Shown here piece by piece: positions 44,903 to 52,181 of a DNA stretch of 64,000 nucleotides. Location of the stretch: IMG/VR virus record IMGVR_UViG_3300036402_000062, positions 135-64,134 of that record, one strand, 5' to 3'. Under the pieces are notes generated by a model that ran no database searches, had not been told where the DNA came from, and was given only the letters and a program-made list of their open reading frames with translations. The stretch comes from a virus. The stretch's first letter is position 1. Each line of letters opens with the position of its first letter. The position numbers and the translations under genes were made by a program.

Positions 44903-45691
44903 ATGAAAATCAAGCGCTTCCTCCCTCTGCTCTTCGCGGCCGCCCTCGCCGCTGTGTCGGTCGCGGCGCAGGCCGCTGGCGTGGACGTGAACGGCTTCAT
45001 CGCCGCGCACAGCGACGCCATCACCGGCTTGGCCATGGTCGGCTCGGTTTCCCTCCCGAACGGCGCCCTGGTGCACATCGCCAGCGGCTACGGAGCGTCG
45101 AAGACGATGTCCGCGATCACCAACGCCTCCGCGGCGGTGGCAACGCTGGAAGCTTCGCACGGAGTCATCGTCAACGACATCATCGAGGTGACCTCCGGCT
45201 GGTCCCGCCTGAACAACAAGGTGGTGCGCGCCTCCGTGATCTCCACCAATGACGTGACGCTGGAAGGCATCGTCAGCACGTCGACCGCCATCTACCCGGC
45301 CGGTACCGGCACGGGCTCGGTGCGCGAGATCACTGGGTGGACCCAGCTGCAGCAGATCCTTGACTCCGGTTCCAACGGCGGCGAGCAGCAGTTTCTCGAG
45401 TTCCAATTTCTTGAAGGCGACGCGCAGGTGCGCATCCCGACGTTCAAGAATGCCGCGGGCCTTTCCTTCAGCATCGCGGACGACCCGACCCTGGCCGGCT
45501 ACCTGCTCGCGTCTGAAGCGAACGACGACCGGCTGCAGCGCGCGGTGCGGATCACGCTGCCGTCGAGCGCGAAGATCTATTACAACGCGTATATCAGCCT
45601 GAACAAGACGCCGTCGCTGAACGTCAACCAGCTGATGGCATGCCAGGTCACGTTGTCGCTGCTGAACGAGCCGGTGCGCTACACCTCGTAA
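44903..45691 (+). CDS. major tail tube protein with signal-peptide-like N-terminal extension
   Basis: SVSLPNGA core start, SGWSRLN, GGEQQF..QFLE, PSLNVNQ; preceded by MKIKRFLPLLFAAALAAVSVAAQAA. Confidence 0.88.
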   Translation: MKIKRFLPLLFAAALAAVSVAAQAAGVDVNGFIAAHSDAITGLAMVGSVSLPNGALVHIASGYGASKTMSAITNASAAVATLEASHGVIVNDIIEVTSGWSRLNNKVVRASVISTNDVTLEGIVSTSTAIYPAGTGTGSVREITGWTQLQQILDSGSNGGEQQFLEFQFLEGDAQVRIPTFKNAAGLSFSIADDPTLAGYLLASEANDDRLQRAVRITLPSSAKIYYNAYISLNKTPSLNVNQLMACQVTLSLLNEPVRYTS

Positions 45692-45694
45692 GCC

Positions 45695-46006
45695 ATGGCG
45701 AAGCTGCAATTGAAAGCGGCGCCCACCTTCCAGGCGGAGGTGGGCATTCCTGCTGCTGGTGGTGTGGTGACGAACGTCTCCATGACGTTCAAGCACCGCA
45801 CGAAGAGCGAGCTGGACGAGTTCATCAAGGGCCGCGTCGGCAAGTCCGACGTGGAGTCCTTCATGGAAATGGTCACCGGCTGGGAACTGGAGGACGAGTT
45901 CACGGAGGCATCGGTCAAGACGCTCCTGGAGAACTACATCGGCGCAGCGCAGGAGACGTTCTTCAAATACGTCGACGAGCTGGTCCAGGCCAAGCGAAAA
46001 AACTGA
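45695..46006 (+). CDS. tail assembly chaperone (gpG-like)
   Basis: After the tail tube gene; ends at slippery A-AAA-AAC. Confidence 0.85.
   Translation: MAKLQLKAAPTFQAEVGIPAAGGVVTNVSMTFKHRTKSELDEFIKGRVGKSDVESFMEMVTGWELEDEFTEASVKTLLENYIGAAQETFFKYVDELVQAKRKN
45997..46003 (+). other. programmed -1 frameshift site (A AAA AAC)
   Basis: X-XXY-YYZ heptamer in frame before TGA 46004-46006; the -1 frame is open to 46314. Confidence 0.8.
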
Positions 46007-46314
46007 CGGCGGCAGCTCGTGGGCTCTACACCGAGGGACCCACCGAGCAGGAAGCCGCGCAGTTTGGCCTGACGGTCGAAGAGGCGGAGCAGACGGTGGA
46101 AGTCTGGCCGGACAACTGGCTGTCCGTGAACACGTTCGCCGCGCTCTCCACGCAGTGGCGCGTGGGCGTGTCCGGCCCCATCGGCCTCGACTACACGGCG
46201 ATCCCCGATGTGATGCGGATGACCGGCGTTCCGCGAGCGGAATGGCCGGAAGTGTTCGACTGCATCCGGGTGATGGAAGTCGCCGCGCTGCGCAAGCTGC
46301 GCGAGAAGAAATAG
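45997..46314 (+). CDS. tail assembly chaperone gpT-like extension (DUF1799-like)
   Basis: VWPDNW...F...TQWR.G..G..GLDY...IRVME.AAL reached by the -1 shift. Confidence 0.82.
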   Translation, partial: KKLTAAARGLYTEGPTEQEAAQFGLTVEEAEQTVEVWPDNWLSVNTFAALSTQWRVGVSGPIGLDYTAIPDVMRMTGVPRAEWPEVFDCIRVMEVAALRKLREKK

Positions 46315-46315
46315 A

Positions 46316-46684
46316 TCAGGAACCGAACTGTCTAAGTGTCGGATCGCGCTTTGTGCGCGGCGCGGCGCAAACCCATTCGCTGAGGGCGCGTGATGCCTTC
46401 GTCGCGCCCGCCTTGTCCCCCGCGAAGTTGACGCCCTTGCGGTCTTGCAGCGTGATGACGCTTCGTTGGCAGTTGACGACGAGAAAGAACGCGGTCCGGT
46501 CAACCCCCTTCGGGCCACCCATGAAGACGGGAGATGCACGGACGTCACCGTTCGCTGTGACGTTGGATTCGTCGATGCACATAGTCCCCCGAGTGACTTC
46601 GTCAACGTGGCACGACAATTCTTTCGCATGAGCAGAGCCGAGAAGGAATGCGACGAGGCCGAGCGCCAACCGCAGTGCAGTCAT
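46316..46684 (-). CDS. exported protein (moron)
   Basis: Signal peptide MTALRLALGLVAFLLGSAHA; four Cys; antisense to the tail genes. Confidence 0.75.
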   Translation of the reverse strand: MTALRLALGLVAFLLGSAHAKELSCHVDEVTRGTMCIDESNVTANGDVRASPVFMGGPKGVDRTAFFLVVNCQRSVITLQDRKGVNFAGDKAGATKASRALSEWVCAAPRTKRDPTLRQFGS

Positions 46685-47019
46685 TTGCCCCCCTTAATTT
46701 TGCGGGGCGGCTGTTCGGGGGGGCGCACCTGCCCGAAGTGAATCGGATCGCCGTCATCATGCATTTCAATGCCGCCATCCTCGGGCTGGCGCTGCATCCA
46801 CTTGTGCAAAGCGTCTACTTGTAGCGACAAGCGATCGAAGCGGCGCGCGAATTCAGAGGCCGCGGCAGGTTCAAGGGTCTGCTGAAGGCGCGCGACGATC
46901 TCGGAGTTCATGGAGCGGTTGTTCCGCTTCGCCGCCTCCGCGATCTTGTCGCGCATGCCATCTGGCAGCCGAACGATGAACCGATCGGCGAGTTCGCTGG
47001 GGTACTTGTCAGCCGGCAT
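46681..47019 (-). CDS. Arc/Mnt-family ribbon-helix-helix repressor
   Basis: DRFIVRLPDGMRDKIAEAAKRNNRSMNSEIVARL. Confidence 0.92.
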   Translation of the reverse strand: MPADKYPSELADRFIVRLPDGMRDKIAEAAKRNNRSMNSEIVARLQQTLEPAAASEFARRFDRLSLQVDALHKWMQRQPEDGGIEMHDDGDPIHFGQVRPPEQPPRKIKGGK

Positions 47020-47036
47020 CGGCCCATGCTAATCCC

Positions 47037-47093
47037 GACTTGGCATCAAGGGAATCATGCCAACTTGTCATCGATGCCGAGTCGCCATATAGT
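47037..47093 (+). promoter_or_regulatory. sigma70 promoter with Arc/Mnt-type operator repeats
   Basis: TTGTCA (47065-47070), 17 nt, TATAGT (47088-47093); TTGGCAT/ATGCCAA inverted repeat 47040-47063 and a third half-site GATGCCGAG 47073-47081. Confidence 0.75.
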
Positions 47094-47128
47094 GACGGTG
47101 TCAACACGATGTAGCTGAGAGGTACTAA

Positions 47129-47305
47129 TTGAAAGCCGGAAAACGTCCGATCCCCCCATTTGGGCTCCGCCTGCCGGAAGACCTCAAGACGTGGCTTGAG
47201 GTGCGCGCCCGCGAAAACCGACGCTCCATGAACTCAGAAATCACCTTTTTGCTTGACCGGTACCGCGCGCAGCAGCAGCGGCAGCCACAGGAGGCGATGC
47301 AGTGA
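47129..47305 (+). CDS. Arc-like repressor (58 aa, not in ORF track)
   Basis: Own translation from TTG: MKAGKRPIPPFGLRLPEDLKTWLEVRARENRRSMNSEITFLLDRYRAQQQRQPQEAMQ; GAGAGG RBS. Confidence 0.85.
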   Translation: MKAGKRPIPPFGLRLPEDLKTWLEVRARENRRSMNSEITFLLDRYRAQQQRQPQEAMQ

Positions 47306-47841
47306 CCGCGCAGGTGCTTGTCTTCGCCGACTACCAGGGGCTGGAGGTGTCGTTCACCCCAGACGGCTGGTTCAACGCCACTGCGGCCGCGAGCAAGTTC
47401 GGCAAGAAGCCCAACGAGTGGCTACGACTGCCGGAGACGAAGCGGTACATGCGCGCGCTAGCCAGGAAGGCCGAAGCGGGAAAATCCCACTTCGGGTACC
47501 GGACGGAGCGCGGTGGTCGCATGGGCGGCGGCGTCACCTGGCTGCATCCGAAGCTGGCGGTTCGGTTCGCTCAGTGGCTTGACGTGGACTTCGCGGTCTG
47601 GTGCGACGAGCAGATCGACGCCTTGCTGCACGGCCGCCCGGTGGTCGGCGCCGGACTCTATGCGCAGCGACTCGCTTTCGAGGGTCGAAAAGCCGGGAGC
47701 GAGCAGAAGGGACGGATCGGCAGTCGATTGATGAATGAGCGACGGAGGGAAAAGCCGGCGCTGGAGCAACAGGACGAGCGGTGGAAGCTGACCATGGAAC
47801 CCGGCTTGTTCGGGCGATTGGACTTCGCACAGGCTGCCTGA
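47302..47841 (+). CDS. KilA-N domain protein (antirepressor-like)
   Basis: DGWFNATAAASKFGKKPNEWLRL, GG.TWLHPKLAV.FAQWL..DFAVWCD. Confidence 0.9.
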   Translation: MTAQVLVFADYQGLEVSFTPDGWFNATAAASKFGKKPNEWLRLPETKRYMRALARKAEAGKSHFGYRTERGGRMGGGVTWLHPKLAVRFAQWLDVDFAVWCDEQIDALLHGRPVVGAGLYAQRLAFEGRKAGSEQKGRIGSRLMNERRREKPALEQQDERWKLTMEPGLFGRLDFAQAA

Positions 47842-47916
47842 AAAGGTGAAGCCCCGACGCTGGCAGGCGTCAGGGCTTCGGTGATGAACCCAACCCGTCT
47901 AAGAGAAGGAATCAAC

Positions 47917-48177
47917 GTGGCGAAGATTACCACCGCGCGCCGGAGCGCGCAAACACGACAGTTTTCGAAGTTCATGGCGCAAGTCATGGAGCCGGTGACC
48001 CAGAAGCCGACCCTGCGGGAGGCGATCGCAACGATTGGAGAAGCCCTCCAGCCGCTCGGCCAGTTGGAGCGAGACGTTATCGCGGTCGGCCTCGCTCTCC
48101 TCGCGAAGAACCCGGAGCAGAGCGGCAGGCTCGCGATGTCCATCAGCGTCTTGGCTGGACACGAGGCAGCACGCTGA
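47917..48177 (+). CDS. hypothetical helical protein
   Basis: GTG start after an AGAAGGA RBS; TGATG-coupled to the RAMP-like gene. Confidence 0.6.
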   Translation: MAKITTARRSAQTRQFSKFMAQVMEPVTQKPTLREAIATIGEALQPLGQLERDVIAVGLALLAKNPEQSGRLAMSISVLAGHEAAR

Positions 48178-48752
48178 TGGTCACGAAAAAAGAAACCACG
48201 ATCACGCTGCCGGCGCTGAATATTCAGTTCCTGAAGCTGCGACTGGTGGGCGACAGCCCGCTGATCTGCCACGCCTGGAGCGAGAAGGCGAAGAAGCAGA
48301 TGCTCGACGCGCAGATGAAGAAGGCAAAGCAAGCGAAGGCCGCCAAGGACCCGGAGCAGGATTTCCAGGACTCGCTCTACACGCACCCTGATGGCGGATA
48401 CGGCTTCCCCGCGGTTGCGTTCAAGGCGGCGGCGGTGGACGCCTGCAGTTCCATCGAGGGCGTCACGAAAGTGGAGGCGCGCGGCGCCTTCCACATCATG
48501 GGCGACATGGTGAAGATCGAAGGCGAGCCGACGCCGCGCGAAGACATGGTGCGCGTTGGCATGGGGACGGCGGACATCCGCTACCGTGGCGAGTTCCGCG
48601 AGTGGGCTGCAGACATCACGCTCCGCTACAACGCAAACGTGCTGAGCCCGGAGCAGATCGCGAACTTGTTCAACACAGCCGGCTTCGCGGTCGGCGTGGG
48701 CGAGTGGCGTCCGCAGCGTGACGGCAGCTTCGGCATGTTCCACGTGGGTTGA
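48177..48752 (+). CDS. stand-alone RAMP/Cas7-like RNA-binding protein (Vipr-like)
   Basis: RAMP hallmarks: beta1 LRLVGDSPL, GFPAVAFKAAA (cf. IPgssLKG), terminal Gly-rich loop GVGEWRPQRDGSFGMF; 191 aa. Confidence 0.8.
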   Translation: MVTKKETTITLPALNIQFLKLRLVGDSPLICHAWSEKAKKQMLDAQMKKAKQAKAAKDPEQDFQDSLYTHPDGGYGFPAVAFKAAAVDACSSIEGVTKVEARGAFHIMGDMVKIEGEPTPREDMVRVGMGTADIRYRGEFREWAADITLRYNANVLSPEQIANLFNTAGFAVGVGEWRPQRDGSFGMFHVG

Positions 48753-48754
48753 TC

Positions 48755-49240
48755 ATGATCTACAAGTTCAGGGACGGCGCCCACCTCACGGGCGATGCGC
48801 AGAAGGTGGGCGAACGGCTGGCGGCACTGGAGGCCTCCGGGCGCCTGACGGCCAAAGCGGTGGTGCAGGAAGCTCGCAGCGACGACAGCCCGTTGCATCC
48901 GCTGTTCGAATGGGACGACGCGAAGGCGGCGGACAAGTACCGGATCGCACATGCCGGTCACGTGATTCGCTGCGTCACCGTGGTGTTGGACCAGCAGCAA
49001 TCGGAAGAGCCGAAGACGATTCGCGCGTTCGTGCCGATCACGCAGGGCGACGAGAGCCGGCAGTACGTGGACACCGTGCGCGCGTTGAGCGACACTGAGA
49101 TGCGCAGGCAGGTGCTGGCGCAGGCGCACGCAGAACTCGGCGCAGTGGCGCGCAAGTACCGCGAACTGAAGGAGCTGGCGGACGTGGTGAACGCAATCGA
49201 CCGCGTCGGCGAGCTCCTGAAGGAAGGGCAGCACTCGTAA
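48755..49240 (+). CDS. conserved phage protein linked to the RAMP gene and array
   Basis: LTAKAVV.EAR...SPLHPLFEWDDAKAA..YR motif; lies between the RAMP gene and the array. Confidence 0.8.
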   Translation: MIYKFRDGAHLTGDAQKVGERLAALEASGRLTAKAVVQEARSDDSPLHPLFEWDDAKAADKYRIAHAGHVIRCVTVVLDQQQSEEPKTIRAFVPITQGDESRQYVDTVRALSDTEMRRQVLAQAHAELGAVARKYRELKELADVVNAIDRVGELLKEGQHS

Positions 49241-49250
49241 GAGGCTGGCC

Positions 49251-49445
49251 CGGGCCCCAAGGCCCGAAACATGGCAGGCATGGCTCGGCAAGGCGAGTCG
49301 GGGCTTGGCGTGGCTTGGCTTGGCGCGGCTGGCTAGGCGCGGTTTGGCTAGGCAAGGCAGGGCTTGGCGCGGCCCGGCGAGGCGAGGCAGGCATGGCTTG
49401 TCTTGGCATGGCACGGCTGGGCACGGCTCGGCCCGGCAGGCGGTA
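49251..49445 (+). ncRNA. putative guide RNA: 5' hairpin plus GGY-NN pentamer array (vrRNA-like)
   Basis: 30 pentamers (27 GGC-NN, 1 GGT-NN, 2 GTC-NN) in 3 blocks delimited by 4-nt GGCW units at 49273, 49327, 49386, 49435; hairpin CGGGCC-ccaa-GGCCCG 49251-49266. Confidence 0.85.
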
Positions 49446-49451
49446 AATGGG

Positions 49452-49480
49452 AAGGCCCTCTTCGGAGGGCCTTTTCTTTT
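49452..49480 (+). terminator. intrinsic terminator closing the array
   Basis: AAGGCCCTC-TTCG-GAGGGCCTT-TTCTTTT. Confidence 0.9.
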
Positions 49481-49490
49481 GGGGAAATAG

Positions 49491-52181
49491 ATGGCGGACC
49501 TCAAAGCACAACTACAGATCGGCGCCGACGTTTCCGGCGTCGAAGCGGGAATCACGCGTGCGAAGAAGTCGATCAACAGCCTCGGCGTGGCCGTTCAGGA
49601 CGCGAACAGCAAGGGCGCGAAGTCGATCGACCGCTACGTCCAGACCCTGCAAACGCAGGCTGCGACGATGGGCAAGTCCTCGCGCGAGGCGGATCTGTAC
49701 AAGCTGGCGCTGAAGGGTGCTTCCGACCAGCAGCTGAAGGCAGCCGACACGGCCATCAAGATGAAGGAGGGCTACGAGCGAGGGGAAGCCGCGGCGCAGC
49801 GCCTGCGCTCGGCCTTCGTTGCGATGGGCGCCATCGCCGCCACCAGCCTGATCGGCGCGCTCGTCGCGTTCGACCAGCTGGTGAAGAAAGCCGGTGACTT
49901 TCAGGACATGGCCGAGAAGTTCGGCGATTCCGGGGAGAACTTCGCCTCGCTCGCCGTTGCCGCCGGCACCGCGGGTGTGCAGATGGACGTGGTCGGATCG
50001 GCCGCGGGCAAGCTGACGAAGAACCTCACCGGCGTGGACGACGAGTCCAAGGCGGCAGGCGCGGCGATCACGGCGTTGGGCTTGAACCTCGCCACCTTCA
50101 AGCAACAGAGCCCTGCCGACCAGATCGAAACCGTCGCGAAGGCGCTGGCCGGGTTCGAGGACGGCGCGACAAAGACTGCCGTGGCGATGGCGCTGTTCGG
50201 CAAGTCGGGCGCCGACCTGTTGCCGTTCCTGAAGGAGCTGGGCGCCGAGGGCGGCCGGCAGGTGATCCTGACGCAGGAGCAGATCCGCCTGGCGGACGAA
50301 TACTCCGATCGCCAGGCCAAGCTGCGCACGGAGATCAGCCTGCATGCGCAGGCGCTGGCCACGGAGCTGCTGCCAACGATCACTCAGTTCACGGCCGCCA
50401 TCGCCGAACTTGCCAAGGACCAGCAAATTGCCTCTGCGGCGGTCGACCTGCTCAAGTCGGCAATCGGCGGCGGGATCGTCGTCTTTCAGACGATCGCAGT
50501 CGTCGCCTCCGATGTGGGGTTTGTGTTCAAGGTGCTTGGCCTAGAGGTCAAGGCGACCTACGACCAGCTGGTGAAGATCGCAACGCTGGATTTCACTGGT
50601 TTCGCAGCAATCAGTGAAGCTGTGGAGAAGGATGCCGCACGAGCACGCTTGACGCTCGATCAGTTCCAGGCTCGGATCATGGCCATCGGCCAGCCCAAGT
50701 TCACCGATCCGCGCATCCTCGGACCAGTTGGATCAATCGCTGAACAGTCGGCCGGCTTCCGAAAGAAGCTGACATTCGACGGCGGCGAGAAGAAAGGCGA
50801 CAAGAGCGCGGAGCAGGAGGCGAAGGCGCGGCTCGCTTTCGACCTGGAGCAAATCAAGAAGGCGTCAGAGTCGATCATCGGGTCGTTCAGCAATGGCGAA
50901 CGAATGCTGGAGGCGGCCCGGTCGGCCGGATTGCTGGACGAGAGGGATTACTACGACCAGAAACTTGCCTTTCTGCGCGCGAATGCGGCTGAGCAGGAGG
51001 CTGCAATCAGCGCCGAGATCAACCGTCTGCAACGGGAGAAGCTGACGGGCAAAGACAAGATCGACAACGACCGAAAGATCCTCGACTCGAAGGCGAAGCT
51101 GGCGAAGGCGACCGCCGATGCTGCGGCTTCGGAGCAGGTGCTGGCCACGCAAACCACCGCAGCACTTAGCCGGCAACAGGTTGCCTTGCTCTCGGCTCGC
51201 CAAGCCGCACAGGACTACTACGACGAGGTCCAGCGTCAGCAGCAGCGCGAGCTGGCCAGCGTCGGGCTAGGCAAGCGCCAGCGCGACCTGAATGCCGGCG
51301 TCAACCAGATCGAGGACCGGTACGCGAACCAGCGTCGCGACCTGGAGAACCAGCGCGCGTTGATCGCGATGGAAGGCAAGACGACCGCCGAGACGGAGCG
51401 TCAATACGCCGAGCGTCTGCGGATCATCAACGAGTTTCAGCAGCGGTCGGTGGATTCGTACATCGGCTATTACGCCCGGCTCATGGAGCAACAGGGTAAT
51501 TGGGCCGCCGGCGCGAACGAGGCGCTGCAGAACTACTACGACGATTCGCAGGACGTGTTCAAGGGCGTCGAGGGCGCCGTCACGAAGGCGTTCCAGGGCA
51601 TGGAGGACGCGCTCGTCGAGTTCGCCACCACCGGGAAGATGAACTTCAAGGGGCTGGTGAATTCGATCATCGCGGACATCGCCCGCATCGTGATCAGGCA
51701 GAACATCACCGGGCCGCTGGCGAAGGCGCTGCAGGGCTCCTTCGGTGGCGGCGGCAGCGGCCCCGGCGGCGGCTTCAGCTCCGACGCGAGCCTGCTGAAC
51801 TACGTGAACGCGATGCCCAGCGCCAAGGGCAACGTGTTCCAGTCGGCCGGCCTCGCAGCCTACTCGAACCAGATCGTCAACAGCCCGACGCTGTTCGCGT
51901 TCGCGCGCGGTGCCGGGCTCATGGGCGAGGCTGGCCCGGAGGCGATCATGCCGCTGCGCCGCGGCGCCGACGGTCGGCTGGGCGTGGAGGCGGCGCAGGG
52001 CGGCGGCGCCATCCACATCGTGAACAACCTGCCCGCGCAGATCGGCAAGGTCTCGCAGCGCCAGACACCCGACGGCGACCGGGTTCTCGTTCTCGAGGCT
52101 GTGGCGACGGCGCTGGGCGACCCGCAATCGCGCGTGAGCAAGGCCATGCAGCGCAACTACGGGTTGTCGAGGAACCGCTGA
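49491..52181 (+). CDS. tail tape measure protein (lambda gpH-like C-terminus)
   Basis: 896 aa, helical Ala-rich; C-terminal SAKGNVF...SPTLFAF..GAGLMGEAGPEAIMPL.RG.DG.LGV. Confidence 0.95.
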   Translation: MADLKAQLQIGADVSGVEAGITRAKKSINSLGVAVQDANSKGAKSIDRYVQTLQTQAATMGKSSREADLYKLALKGASDQQLKAADTAIKMKEGYERGEAAAQRLRSAFVAMGAIAATSLIGALVAFDQLVKKAGDFQDMAEKFGDSGENFASLAVAAGTAGVQMDVVGSAAGKLTKNLTGVDDESKAAGAAITALGLNLATFKQQSPADQIETVAKALAGFEDGATKTAVAMALFGKSGADLLPFLKELGAEGGRQVILTQEQIRLADEYSDRQAKLRTEISLHAQALATELLPTITQFTAAIAELAKDQQIASAAVDLLKSAIGGGIVVFQTIAVVASDVGFVFKVLGLEVKATYDQLVKIATLDFTGFAAISEAVEKDAARARLTLDQFQARIMAIGQPKFTDPRILGPVGSIAEQSAGFRKKLTFDGGEKKGDKSAEQEAKARLAFDLEQIKKASESIIGSFSNGERMLEAARSAGLLDERDYYDQKLAFLRANAAEQEAAISAEINRLQREKLTGKDKIDNDRKILDSKAKLAKATADAAASEQVLATQTTAALSRQQVALLSARQAAQDYYDEVQRQQQRELASVGLGKRQRDLNAGVNQIEDRYANQRRDLENQRALIAMEGKTTAETERQYAERLRIINEFQQRSVDSYIGYYARLMEQQGNWAAGANEALQNYYDDSQDVFKGVEGAVTKAFQGMEDALVEFATTGKMNFKGLVNSIIADIARIVIRQNITGPLAKALQGSFGGGGSGPGGGFSSDASLLNYVNAMPSAKGNVFQSAGLAAYSNQIVNSPTLFAFARGAGLMGEAGPEAIMPLRRGADGRLGVEAAQGGGAIHIVNNLPAQIGKVSQRQTPDGDRVLVLEAVATALGDPQSRVSKAMQRNYGLSRNR

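What the first reader, a model, noticed from the sequence alone, without database searches (positions are those of the whole stretch)
48177..49480. CRISPR-less RNA-guided system: stand-alone RAMP/Cas7-like protein, helper ORF and GGY-NN pentamer guide array
Seen: a 191-aa protein with RAMP signatures (beta1 LRLVGDSPL, GFPAVAFKAA, C-terminal Gly-rich loop GVGEWRPQRDGSFGMF). It is followed by a 161-aa conserved ORF, then a non-coding array in which GGC recurs every 5 nt with two variable bases, closed by a strong terminator. No cas1, cas2, cas10, nuclease or CRISPR repeat-spacer array occurs anywhere in the window. Established: Cas7-type RAMPs polymerise along guide RNAs with a fixed number of nucleotides per subunit. 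Inference: each protomer binds one constant GGY and presents the NN bases, so the array is a programmable guide read with a non-contiguous code. The likely use is silencing or blocking DNA of competing phages. From memory and unverified, this matches the recently reported VIPR systems (Vipr protein plus GGY/NN RNA, every third target base skipped), so it may be newly described rather than unknown.
Basis: partly seen in the sequence, partly recalled or inferred. Interest (0 to 1): 0.97.

Follow-up and report, generated by a model that had tools for sequence, protein, structure and literature searches.

The report
Phage VIPR guide-RNA system
This soil phage carries a complete VIPR system, a CRISPR-related RNA-guided DNA-silencing system first described in 2026 preprints. 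One of its three guide RNAs spells a conserved motif of the tail-tube gene of rival phages, so it is a well-supported new example of a known kind.

Summary

**The protein.** The 191-aa protein (48177-48752) folds with high confidence (pLDDT 94) as a minimal RAMP.
- Its best AlphaFold-DB matches are the five entries the VIPR discovery preprint names as founding Vipr proteins.
- A profile of its family hits the PDB chain "SUSP1 Vipr protein" at E 1e-13.
- The GGY-binding residues of SUSP1 Vipr are conserved.

**The array.** The tract 49273-49441 holds 33 pentamers, 31 of them GGY-NN. They form three phase blocks of 11, 12 and 10 units joined by 4-nt GGCAGGC steps, which is the published "staggered" vrRNA architecture. 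A terminator hairpin closes it.

**Linkage.** Ten of eleven homologous loci examined carry such arrays on the same strand, with different NN bases.

**Targets under the published 1-nt-skip rule.**
- Guide 2 matches the major tail gene of related phages at 23/24 positions, with every skipped base at a codon wobble position. The phage's own allele matches only 20/24.
- Guide 1 weakly matches Rha regulator genes.
- Guide 3 has no target.

**Limits.** No RNA data exist, and the VIPR type cannot be assigned.

VIPR is already described, and this scan has noted it before on other DNA (28 earlier findings in at least 27 genomes). This is a new member of a known kind.

The parts
48177..48752 (+). vipr: a 191-aa minimal RAMP (Vipr) protein
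   Evidence: - AlphaFold2 model: pLDDT 94.2.
- PDB Foldseek: the top hits are all Csm3/Cas7-type RAMPs.
- AFDB cluster hits ranked 1-4 and 6 are the five founding Vipr entries named in the preprint.
- Family profile A1 hits PDB 36pp_D 'SUSP1 Vipr protein' at E 1.1e-13.
- It is 24% identical over its full length to SUSP2 gp040.
- H32, K48, R137, E176, W177 and R178 correspond to SUSP1 H17, K33, R138, D177, W178 and R179.
48755..49240 (+). vap-like accessory gene, 161 aa, function unknown
   Evidence: - It is always adjacent to vipr in close relatives.
- hhalign gives 99.8% probability against Gordonia phage Ecliptus gp20, which follows that phage's vipr and array.
- It is not recognisably related to SUSP2 Vap1 or to the LESphi2 neighbour gene.
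- The model has pLDDT 90.8: an alpha/beta N-terminal domain plus a C-terminal helical hairpin.
- Only uncharacterised proteins give a clear fold match.
49251..49266 (+). Conserved leader hairpin between the vap stop codon and the first guide
   Evidence: Conserved in five related loci, with 2 compensatory pairs. Its function is unknown.
49273..49331 (+). vrRNA 1: start junction GGCAGGC followed by 11 GGY-NN units. NN: AT TC AA GA GG TT GT TT TT GC TG
   Evidence: - Units and phase.
- The best lead for a target is the Rha-family gene motif MTKDGFVFLA: 18/22 in L056, in frame with skips at wobble positions. 3.5% of shuffled guides score as high.
49331..49390 (+). vrRNA 2: 12 units. NN: TA GC TT TA AA AG TT GC CC GA GA AG
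   Evidence: - 23/24 NN match to the major tail genes of L051-L054, and 22/24 to L055.
- 20/24 to the phage's own gene.
- The match appears only under the 1-nt skip rule.
- Shuffled guides reach at most 19.
49390..49441 (+). vrRNA 3 (10 units; NN: AT TT TT AT AC TG AC TC CC AG) plus the end junction GGCAGGC
   Evidence: Units. No target scores above chance.
49452..49480 (+). Intrinsic terminator that closes the array
   Evidence: Hairpin with a UUCG loop and a U tract. Equivalent hairpins with the tail GGCCTWTTTCTTT follow the arrays of L010-L012.
45557..45591 (-). Near-match to vrRNA 2 (20/24) inside the phage's own major tail gene (44903-45691, +)
   Evidence: - All 11 skipped bases lie at codon position 3.
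- The next best score in the genome is 15.
- 0 of 500 shuffled guides reach 20.
- The own peptide LPSSAKIYYNAY is unique among 120 homologs.
47881..48177 (+). Small ORF of unknown function. The likely start is the GTG at 47917. Its stop codon overlaps the vipr start codon.
   Evidence: Sequence. It shows no similarity to the ORF in the same position in L011 and matches no Pfam or PHROG family.
46681..47915 (.). Upstream immI-like regulatory module, the likely control region of the operon
   Evidence: - Arc-type RHH gene, 46681-47019 (-), and a second one, 47129-47305 (+): Pfam.
- Promoter-like site, 47065-47093 (+).
- KilA-N gene, 47302-47841 (+): Pfam.
- sar-like antisense RNA, 47844-47915 (-): Rfam RF00262, 43.6 bits against a gathering score of 43.

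Best explanation
This is a VIPR (Viral Interference Programmable Repeat) locus in a complete 64.5-kb siphophage genome from soil.

**Layout.** The cassette is inserted between the tail assembly chaperone and tape measure genes. It encodes Vipr (a minimal Cas7-like RAMP), a vap-type accessory protein, and a staggered array of three vrRNAs of 10-12 GGY-NN units each, closed by a terminator.

**Mechanism, by analogy with the characterised SUSP1 system (inferred here).** One Vipr protomer binds each pentamer and buries the GGY bases. The NN bases are presented to pair with double-stranded DNA, with every third target base skipped. The bound complex blocks transcription.

**Shown here in silico.** Guide 2 reads the motif L-P-S-G-A-K-L-F-Y-N-A-Y in the tail-tube gene of related phages, with the skipped bases at wobble positions. 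The phage's own allele differs at four guide positions through three amino-acid changes.

**Most likely use (inferred).** The system silences virion assembly of competing kin phages in a shared host while sparing the phage's own tail gene.
For: **Protein membership.**
- Confident RAMP fold.
- The nearest AFDB clusters are the five founding Vipr entries of the preprint.
- The family profile hits the solved SUSP1 Vipr at E 1.1e-13.
- Full-length alignment to SUSP2 gp040, pairwise E 2e-11.
- The residues that recognise G1 and G2 and contact the target backbone are conserved.

**Array.**
- 31 of 33 units are GGY, in three phase blocks, and there is no other such run in the window.
- GGCAGGC is the 4-nt-step junction in 35 of 43 junctions across 11 loci. 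Most blocks are 44-59 nt long. This fits the staggered arrays of the preprint's fig. S18.

**Linkage.**
- Arrays lie on the same strand next to vipr in L002-L006, L009-L013 and L056, and in SUSP2 and LESphi2. The NN bases differ even where Vipr is 90% identical (L010).
- The family is large: 3955 representative clusters.

**Target of guide 2.**
- 23/24 in four contigs that differ at the skipped bases, and 22/24 in a fifth.
- Skip rules 0, 2 and 3 give at most 16, and shuffled guides at most 19.
- The own gene scores 20/24, with all skips at codon position 3.
Against: - No RNA-seq or other expression data exist for this phage; the only run that holds it is a soil DNA metagenome.
- Binding, silencing and vrRNA processing were not tested.
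- Exact-pattern scans of IMG/VR and JGI metagenomes found no perfect targets for the full guide patterns, though the JGI scan also missed known positives.
- No target was found in 301 genomes of the family of the one genome that holds a close prophage relative.
- Some 23/24 targets lie in phages of 46% G+C. The match therefore partly reflects a conserved peptide rather than a proven shared-host rival.
- The own gene's 83% identity exceeds the 80% cut-off that the preprints use to call targets, so self-sparing is not assured.
- The vap is unrelated in sequence to the tested Vap1.
- The VIPR type cannot be assigned because the preprint's supplementary tables are not held.
Confidence: 0.9

Rival explanations
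1. It is a VIPR locus, but guide 2 acts on the phage's own major tail gene. This would be self-regulation, for example holding late tail genes off during lysogeny or timing them, rather than an attack on rivals.
For: - The own gene matches 20/24 (83%), which is above the 80% cut-off that the preprints use to call targets.
- The site lies 3.7 kb upstream on the same genome.
- The operon sits behind Arc/Mnt-type repressor genes, which suggests regulated expression.
Against: - Relatives' alleles match better, at 22-23/24.
- The own peptide variant is unique among 120 homologs, and three of its four mismatches are amino-acid changes away from the guide.
- The preprints report self-scores that are lower than non-self scores as a way to avoid autoimmunity, and no self-targets in their sets.
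Confidence: 0.12
2. The locus is a decayed or silent VIPR remnant. The genes and repeats are inherited but no longer expressed or functional, and the guide matches reflect past rather than current conflicts.
For: - There is no expression evidence.
- Two units are degenerate (GTC instead of GGY).
- Guide 3 has no target, and guide 1 has only a weak one.
- One close relative (L001) has vipr and a truncated vap but no array.
Against: - Both ORFs are intact and their key residues are conserved.
- 31 of 33 units keep GGY.
- The leader hairpin, junctions and terminator are conserved in relatives.
- Internal degenerate units are described as common in functional vrRNAs.
Confidence: 0.06
3. The pentamer tract is an ordinary G+C-rich simple-sequence repeat or a structured 3' UTR, and the RAMP-like protein has an unrelated phage role. 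The guide-to-tail-gene match would then be coincidence.
For: - The tract folds more stably than shuffled sequence (z -3.7).
- It gives weak sub-threshold Rfam hits to sRNA families.
Against: - The array co-occurs with vipr across phyla while its NN bases vary.
- The protein is homologous to an experimentally characterised Vipr.
- The guide match is found only under the published skip rule, with all skips at wobble positions, and it exceeds all shuffled guides.
Confidence: 0.02

Closest known systems
VIPR systems with staggered vrRNA arrays (bioRxiv 10.64898/2026.04.26.720920, fig. S18). The annotated example seen here is Gordonia phage Ecliptus gp19, its array and gp20 (OP820472.1).
   Same: - Vipr is 41% identical.
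- The vap is homologous.
- The array is a continuous GGY-NN tract broken by 4-nt GGCAGGC or GGCTGGC steps into blocks of 8-12 units.
- The cassette is inserted at the same place, between the tail assembly chaperone and tape measure genes, behind small DNA-binding repressor genes.
   Different: - Here the gene order is vipr-vap-array, whereas Ecliptus and L004 have vipr-array-vap.
- The host lineage differs: G+C-rich Pseudomonadota rather than Actinomycetota.
- The guides are unrelated.
- The numbered VIPR type could not be determined.
Type II VIPR of Escherichia phage SUSP1 and SUSP2 (Vipr, Vap1 and four vrRNAs; experimentally characterised, with cryo-EM structures)
   Same: - Homologous Vipr: 24% identity, pairwise E 2e-11, and profile E 1e-13 to PDB 36pp_D.
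- The H, R and (D/E)WR residues that hold the GG bases are conserved.
- GGY-NN pentamers, 10-12 units per guide.
- The 1-nt skip rule applies, with skips at wobble positions.
- The predicted target is a competing mobile element.
   Different: - SUSP vrRNAs are separate genes, each with its own conserved pseudoknot tail. Here the guides abut without tails and share one terminator.
- The vap is not recognisably related to Vap1.
- The residues of the Y3 pocket differ: V80, A81, V172 and V174 here, against E71, M72, C173 and T175 in SUSP1.
- The predicted target is a structural gene of kin phages rather than a satellite recombinase.
CRISPR-Cas class 1 backbone proteins (Cas7, Csm3, Cmr4)
   Same: RRM core, glycine-rich loop and thumb. 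The best solved-structure matches are Csm3 and type VII Cas7.
   Different: - There is no CRISPR array, Cas1, or other Pfam RAMP gene in the genome.
- Sequence identity is only 8-15%.
- The RNA register is 5 nt with a gapped code, not a 6-nt contiguous guide.

Membership tests
VIPR system | Vipr protein: a small stand-alone RAMP (RRM core, G-loop, thumb) homologous to the described Vipr family | tested here: met
   - Model pLDDT 94.
- Cas7/Csm3 folds top the PDB search.
- The five founding Vipr UniProt entries are the top AFDB hits, with TM up to 0.85.
- The profile hits the PDB chain 'SUSP1 Vipr protein' at E 1.1e-13.
VIPR system | Residues that recognise the GGY scaffold (SUSP1 H17, R138, D177, W178, R179) and contact the target backbone (K33) | tested here: met
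   The alignment maps them to H32, R137, E176, W177, R178 and K48. R137 and R178 are invariant in 62 family members. The Y3-pocket residues are not conserved.
VIPR system | vrRNA genes: tandem GGY-NN (YNNGG) pentamers, at least 4 units and typically 9-16, next to vipr on the same strand, with variable NN bases | tested here: met
   Three blocks of 11, 12 and 10 units, 31 of 33 being GGY. Relatives carry arrays with different NN bases.
VIPR system | Minimal locus with a vap accessory gene and no CRISPR array or cas genes | tested here: met
   - A vap-like ORF is linked to vipr in relatives.
- There is no CRISPR-like repeat array.
- There is no Cas1 or Pfam RAMP match in the genome.
- Other cas genes were not tested individually.
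VIPR system | Targets recognised by the 1-nt skip rule, with skipped bases mostly at codon wobble positions | tested here: met
   - Guide 2 scores 23/24 against rival tail genes only at skip 1; skips 0, 2 and 3 give at most 16.
- All 11 skipped bases fall at codon position 3.
- It exceeds all shuffled guides.
- This was met for one of the three guides.
VIPR system | vrRNAs are transcribed, processed and bound by Vipr, and the complex represses transcription | not testable with these tools
   No RNA run holds this sequence. Testing this needs sRNA-seq, a pull-down and a reporter assay.
VIPR type II (SUSP1 / P. fulva clade) | Separate vrRNAs, each with a conserved structured 3' tail, plus a Vap1 accessory protein | tested here: not met
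   The guides abut through 4-nt junctions without tails. The vap profile does not match SUSP2 Vap1 or the LESphi2 neighbour gene. The locus belongs to another type, with a staggered array.
CRISPR-Cas | Repeat-spacer array with an adaptation module (Cas1/Cas2) | tested here: not met

The most novel reading that the evidence does not exclude
The locus may work as a kin-discrimination device.

- Guide 2 reads a conserved peptide motif of the tail-tube gene shared by close relatives. The carrier phage's own allele has been recoded by amino-acid changes (G to S, L to I, F to Y) just far enough to escape.
- Guide 1 is aimed at the Rha regulator gene that, in a rival prophage (L056), lies directly upstream of the rival's own vipr operon. 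Silencing it could also disarm the rival's VIPR.
- The whole operon is wired to a P22 immI-like switch (Arc/Mnt-type repressors and a sar-like antisense RNA over the ribosome-binding site of the gene coupled to vipr). This would be a regulatory layer not yet described for VIPR.
Probability: 0.3. Interest if true: 0.5.

Novelty: new member of a known kind. Interest (0 to 1): 0.3.

Why it matters
VIPR is a very recent discovery, and its natural targets have been mapped mainly for two type II clades: satellites, and prophage lysis-lysogeny regulators.

This locus adds a well-anatomised example with a staggered array from a soil phage of Pseudomonadota. It has three points of interest:
- **A concrete, testable natural target.** The target is an essential structural gene of kin phages, read through its codon periodicity.
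- **A graded self versus non-self contrast.** The own allele matches 83% and rival alleles 96%. This could calibrate how many mismatches VIPR tolerates.
- **A candidate regulatory input.** An immI-like module lies directly upstream.

It does not change the picture of what VIPR is.

Tried and rejected
- **Exact-pattern scans for all three guides.** IMG/VR and JGI metagenome contigs returned nothing for the full guide patterns. The relaxed guide-2 pattern also failed to recover known JGI positives. These negatives are therefore weak.
- **Guide 2 in genomes.** With up to 2 mismatches it found nothing in 301 genomes of the family of the only genome that holds a close prophage relative. With up to 3 mismatches it found nothing in that genome itself.
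- **Guide 1 without its terminal unit.** It gave 7 exact IMG/VR hits. Five lie in one family of large proteins of unknown function (phrog_19383) from phages with 40-46% G+C, and two lie in AT-rich sequence with no open frame. I judge these a coincidental peptide match (ISKDGFVLLA), not a plausible shared-host target.
- **Guide 3.** The best scores are 15/20 in the held loci and 17/20 in a 4.6-Mb genome, both at chance level.
- **Vap fold searches.** PDB Foldseek, AFDB clusters and VIA-align wide gave only uncharacterised relatives, or generic matches to the C-terminal helical hairpin. Weak winged-helix-like rows are not significant.
- **Sequencing runs.** Only the likely source soil DNA metagenome holds the locus.
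- **VIPR type.** The supplementary tables of the VIPR preprint are not held, so the type (I-VII) could not be assigned.
Full report
**What is there.** The window is almost all of a 64.5-kb linear virus record rated 100% complete. The only sequencing run that holds it is a soil metagenome.

Around the finding the plus strand carries, in order:
- the major tail gene (44903-45691; PF08813 / phrog_584);
- the tail assembly chaperone (45695-46314);
- a 3.2-kb insert;
- the tape measure gene (49491-52181).

Related phages have the chaperone directly followed by the tape measure gene, so the insert is a cassette.

The cassette holds:
- a small minus-strand ORF with a signal-peptide-like start (46316-46684);
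- two Arc-type ribbon-helix-helix genes facing away from each other (46681-47019 on the minus strand, 47129-47305 on the plus strand), with a promoter-like site between them (47065-47093);
- a KilA-N gene (47302-47841);
- an Rfam sar-RNA match on the minus strand (47844-47915; 43.6 bits against a gathering score of 43);
- a small ORF (47881 or 47917 to 48177) whose stop codon overlaps the next start codon;
- the 191-aa gene (48177-48752);
- the 161-aa gene (48755-49240);
- the pentamer tract and a terminator hairpin (49452-49480).

**The observation.** GGY recurs every 5 nt from 49273 to 49441. There are 33 units, of which 30 are GGC, 1 is GGT and 2 are GTC. They are not in one register. Three blocks of 11, 12 and 10 units (49277-49331, 49331-49390, 49390-49439) are each shifted by one base at a 4-nt step. 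The step is GGCAGGC at 49273, 49386 and 49435, and GGCTGGC at 49327. No other run of six or more in-phase GGY units occurs on either strand of the window. The window holds no CRISPR-like array, and the record gives no match to the Cas1 or Pfam RAMP models.

**The protein.** Pfam finds nothing, and PHROGs places it in phrog_4652, a family of unknown function. The family is very large: 3955 clusters at 50% identity with E up to 0.001.

- An AlphaFold2 model built on 62 homologs is confident (pLDDT 94.2, pTM 0.86).
- Against solved structures, the first 50 Foldseek matches are all CRISPR complexes whose matched chains are RAMP backbone subunits: Csm3, Cmr4, type VII Cas7 and Cas7-11.
- Against AlphaFold-DB clusters, the hits ranked 1-4 and 6 are A0A0F9A1L0 (TM 0.85), X1U2U4, A0A661D0E2, A0A2D6XG06 and A0A1F4YLN4. 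These are exactly the five entries that the VIPR discovery preprint names as its founding Vipr proteins.
- A profile of the family hits one PDB sequence significantly: 36pp_D, 'SUSP1 Vipr protein', at E 1.1e-13.
- The protein aligns end to end with gp040 of Escherichia phage SUSP2, a sister of SUSP1 (24% identity, pairwise E 2e-11). That locus has the published layout of vipr, vap1 and flanking GGY-NN RNAs.
- The cryo-EM preprint identifies H17, D177, R138 and W178 as the residues that hold G1 and G2, R179 as stacking on Y3 in the neighbouring protomer, and K33 as the residue that contacts the target backbone. These map to H32, E176, R137, W177, R178 and K48 here. R137 and R178 are invariant in the family alignment.
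- The residues that line the pyrimidine pocket are not conserved.

**Linkage to arrays.** Ten of the eleven homologous loci that I fetched carry GGY period-5 arrays on the vipr strand, next to the gene, and so do SUSP2 and Pseudomonas phage LESphi2. The ten are IMG/VR contigs L002-L006, metagenome contigs L010-L013 and a MAG prophage L056. The exception is L001, where the vap is truncated and a different gene follows.

- The NN bases share nothing between loci, even at 90% Vipr identity (L010). The leader hairpin, the junction motif and the terminator are conserved.
- Across 11 loci, 35 of 43 four-nt steps read GGCAGGC, and the blocks between them are mostly 44-59 nt, that is 9-12 units.
[quoted passage not shown] S18 legend), and the published 9-16 repeats per vrRNA.

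**The accessory gene.** The 161-aa protein travels with vipr in close relatives. It is homologous (hhalign 99.8%) to gp20 of Gordonia phage Ecliptus, which follows that phage's vipr and staggered array. It shows no detectable relation to SUSP2 Vap1 or to the LESphi2 neighbour gene.

Its model is confident (pLDDT 90.8), but fold searches give only uncharacterised proteins or generic helical hairpins. I call it vap-like by position and linkage; its function is unknown. The locus is therefore not type II. Its numbered type cannot be assigned, because the preprint's tables are not held.

**Targets.** I applied the published rule: NN dinucleotides joined by one wildcard, both strands scanned.

*Guide 2.*
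- In the phage's own genome it scores 20/24 at 45557-45591, inside the major tail gene. The next best position scores 15, and none of 500 unit-shuffled guides reaches 20.
- Skip lengths 0 and 2 give 16 and 15, and skip 3 finds only the array itself.
- All 11 skipped bases fall on codon position 3.
- A perfect target would encode L-S-S-G-A-(K/N)-L-(F/L)-Y-(N/K)-A-Y. The own gene encodes LPSSAKIYYNAY, a variant found once among the 120 closest homologs. Five homologs carry LPSGAKLFYNAY.
- I fetched DNA for two of those five proteins (two contigs each). It gives 23/24 in four contigs from four samples (L051-L054), which differ from one another only at skipped bases. A fifth contig (L055), whose tail protein is 79% identical, gives 22/24.
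- On these loci, skips 0, 2 and 3 give 15-16, and 600 shuffled guides reach at most 19.

This is the hallmark that the preprints describe: codon-periodic recognition that synonymous changes cannot escape, with self-scores lower than non-self scores.

Two cautions apply. Two of the 23/24 contigs have 46% G+C against 65.5% here, so the match tracks a conserved peptide and does not by itself identify the actual rival. And the own gene's 83% lies above the 80% cut-off that the preprints use, so self-sparing is an inference.

*Guide 1.*
- It scores 18/22 on a Rha-family gene (PF09669) in L056, in frame with skips at wobble positions. The peptide read is MTKDGFVFLA.
- 3.5% of shuffled guides do as well on the same 0.5 Mb.
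- In the 4.6-Mb genome that holds L056, this is the only site within 2 mismatches of the first ten units, and the reversed control pattern gives none.
- The Rha gene there sits in the same operon position, upstream of that prophage's vipr, as the KilA-N gene does here. The present phage has no Rha gene.
- I treat this as a lead, not a result. The 17-19/22 scores across 80 Rha loci are biased, because those loci were fetched with the motif itself.

*Guide 3.* It has no match above chance.

**Mechanism.** The following steps are shown by others for SUSP1 and inferred here:
- One Vipr protomer binds per pentamer, and the GGY bases are flipped into protein pockets.
- The NN bases pair with DNA while one target base per unit is skipped.
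- A triplex R-loop forms and represses transcription on either strand.

The following is shown here only by sequence and modelling: the protein belongs to that family and keeps the GG-binding residues; the RNA genes have the right form; and one guide fits a rival gene under that code.

The following is inferred:
- The array is co-transcribed with vipr and vap from the promoter between the Arc-type genes.
- The 4-nt steps delimit three separate RNPs.
- The terminator hairpin caps the last guide.
- The phage uses guide 2 to block tail-tube expression of kin phages.

**Novelty and score.** VIPR was described in April-October 2026 preprints. This scan has already noted it in at least 27 other genomes, including a soil actinophage with a staggered array and a guide against a rival structural gene. 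The present locus is a new member of a known kind.

Its modest added value is the clear pair of target alleles (96% against 83%) and the immI-like regulatory context. Arc-type gene pairs also precede vipr in L010, L011 and L056, and Gordonia phage Ecliptus has its VIPR at the same chaperone/tape-measure junction.

Noticed in passing
window 47844-47915 (-), with 46681-47841: There is an Rfam sar RNA match (RF00262, 43.6 bits against a gathering score of 43). It lies antisense to the ribosome-binding site and start of the small ORF that is translationally coupled to vipr.

Together with two divergent Arc-type RHH genes, a promoter-like site at 47065-47093 and a KilA-N gene, this resembles the P22 immI region (mnt, arc, ant, sar). 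It may control the VIPR operon.
   Followed up: partly
window 46316-49480; L009 (Gordonia phage Ecliptus, OP820472.1 10039-11950): The VIPR cassette is inserted between the tail assembly chaperone and the tape measure gene, both here and in an actinophage. Related phages without VIPR (L051-L055) have those two genes adjacent. This suggests a preferred moron insertion site shared across phyla.
   Followed up: partly
L033 5176-5235 (IMGVR_UViG_3300037482_000077): An intergenic run of 11 partly degenerate GGY-NN units is followed by the hairpin GGGCTGACAACAGCC, in a locus that was fetched for its major tail gene and has no vipr within the 12.6 kb held. The tail resembles those of the vrRNAs of Pseudomonas phage LESphi2. 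This is a candidate orphan (solo) vrRNA.
   Followed up: partly
L005 4684-4728 versus window 48540 and other vipr genes: A 9-unit guide in the L005 array matches a conserved site inside vipr genes of several loci at 15/18, including its own vipr. It may be a vipr-targeting guide or chance.
   Followed up: no
window 46316-46684 (-): A 122-aa ORF with a signal-peptide-like N-terminus (MTALRLALGLVAFLLGSAHA) lies at the left edge of the cassette. It matches no Pfam or PHROG family. It may be a secreted or lipoprotein moron.
   Followed up: no
L001 3441-3810 (IMGVR_UViG_3300043411_000241): This is the closest IMG/VR relative (Vipr 83% identical). It keeps vipr and the start of the vap, but the vap reading frame ends early, a different gene follows, and there is no GGY-NN array. 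It looks like a VIPR locus that has lost its guides.
   Followed up: partly
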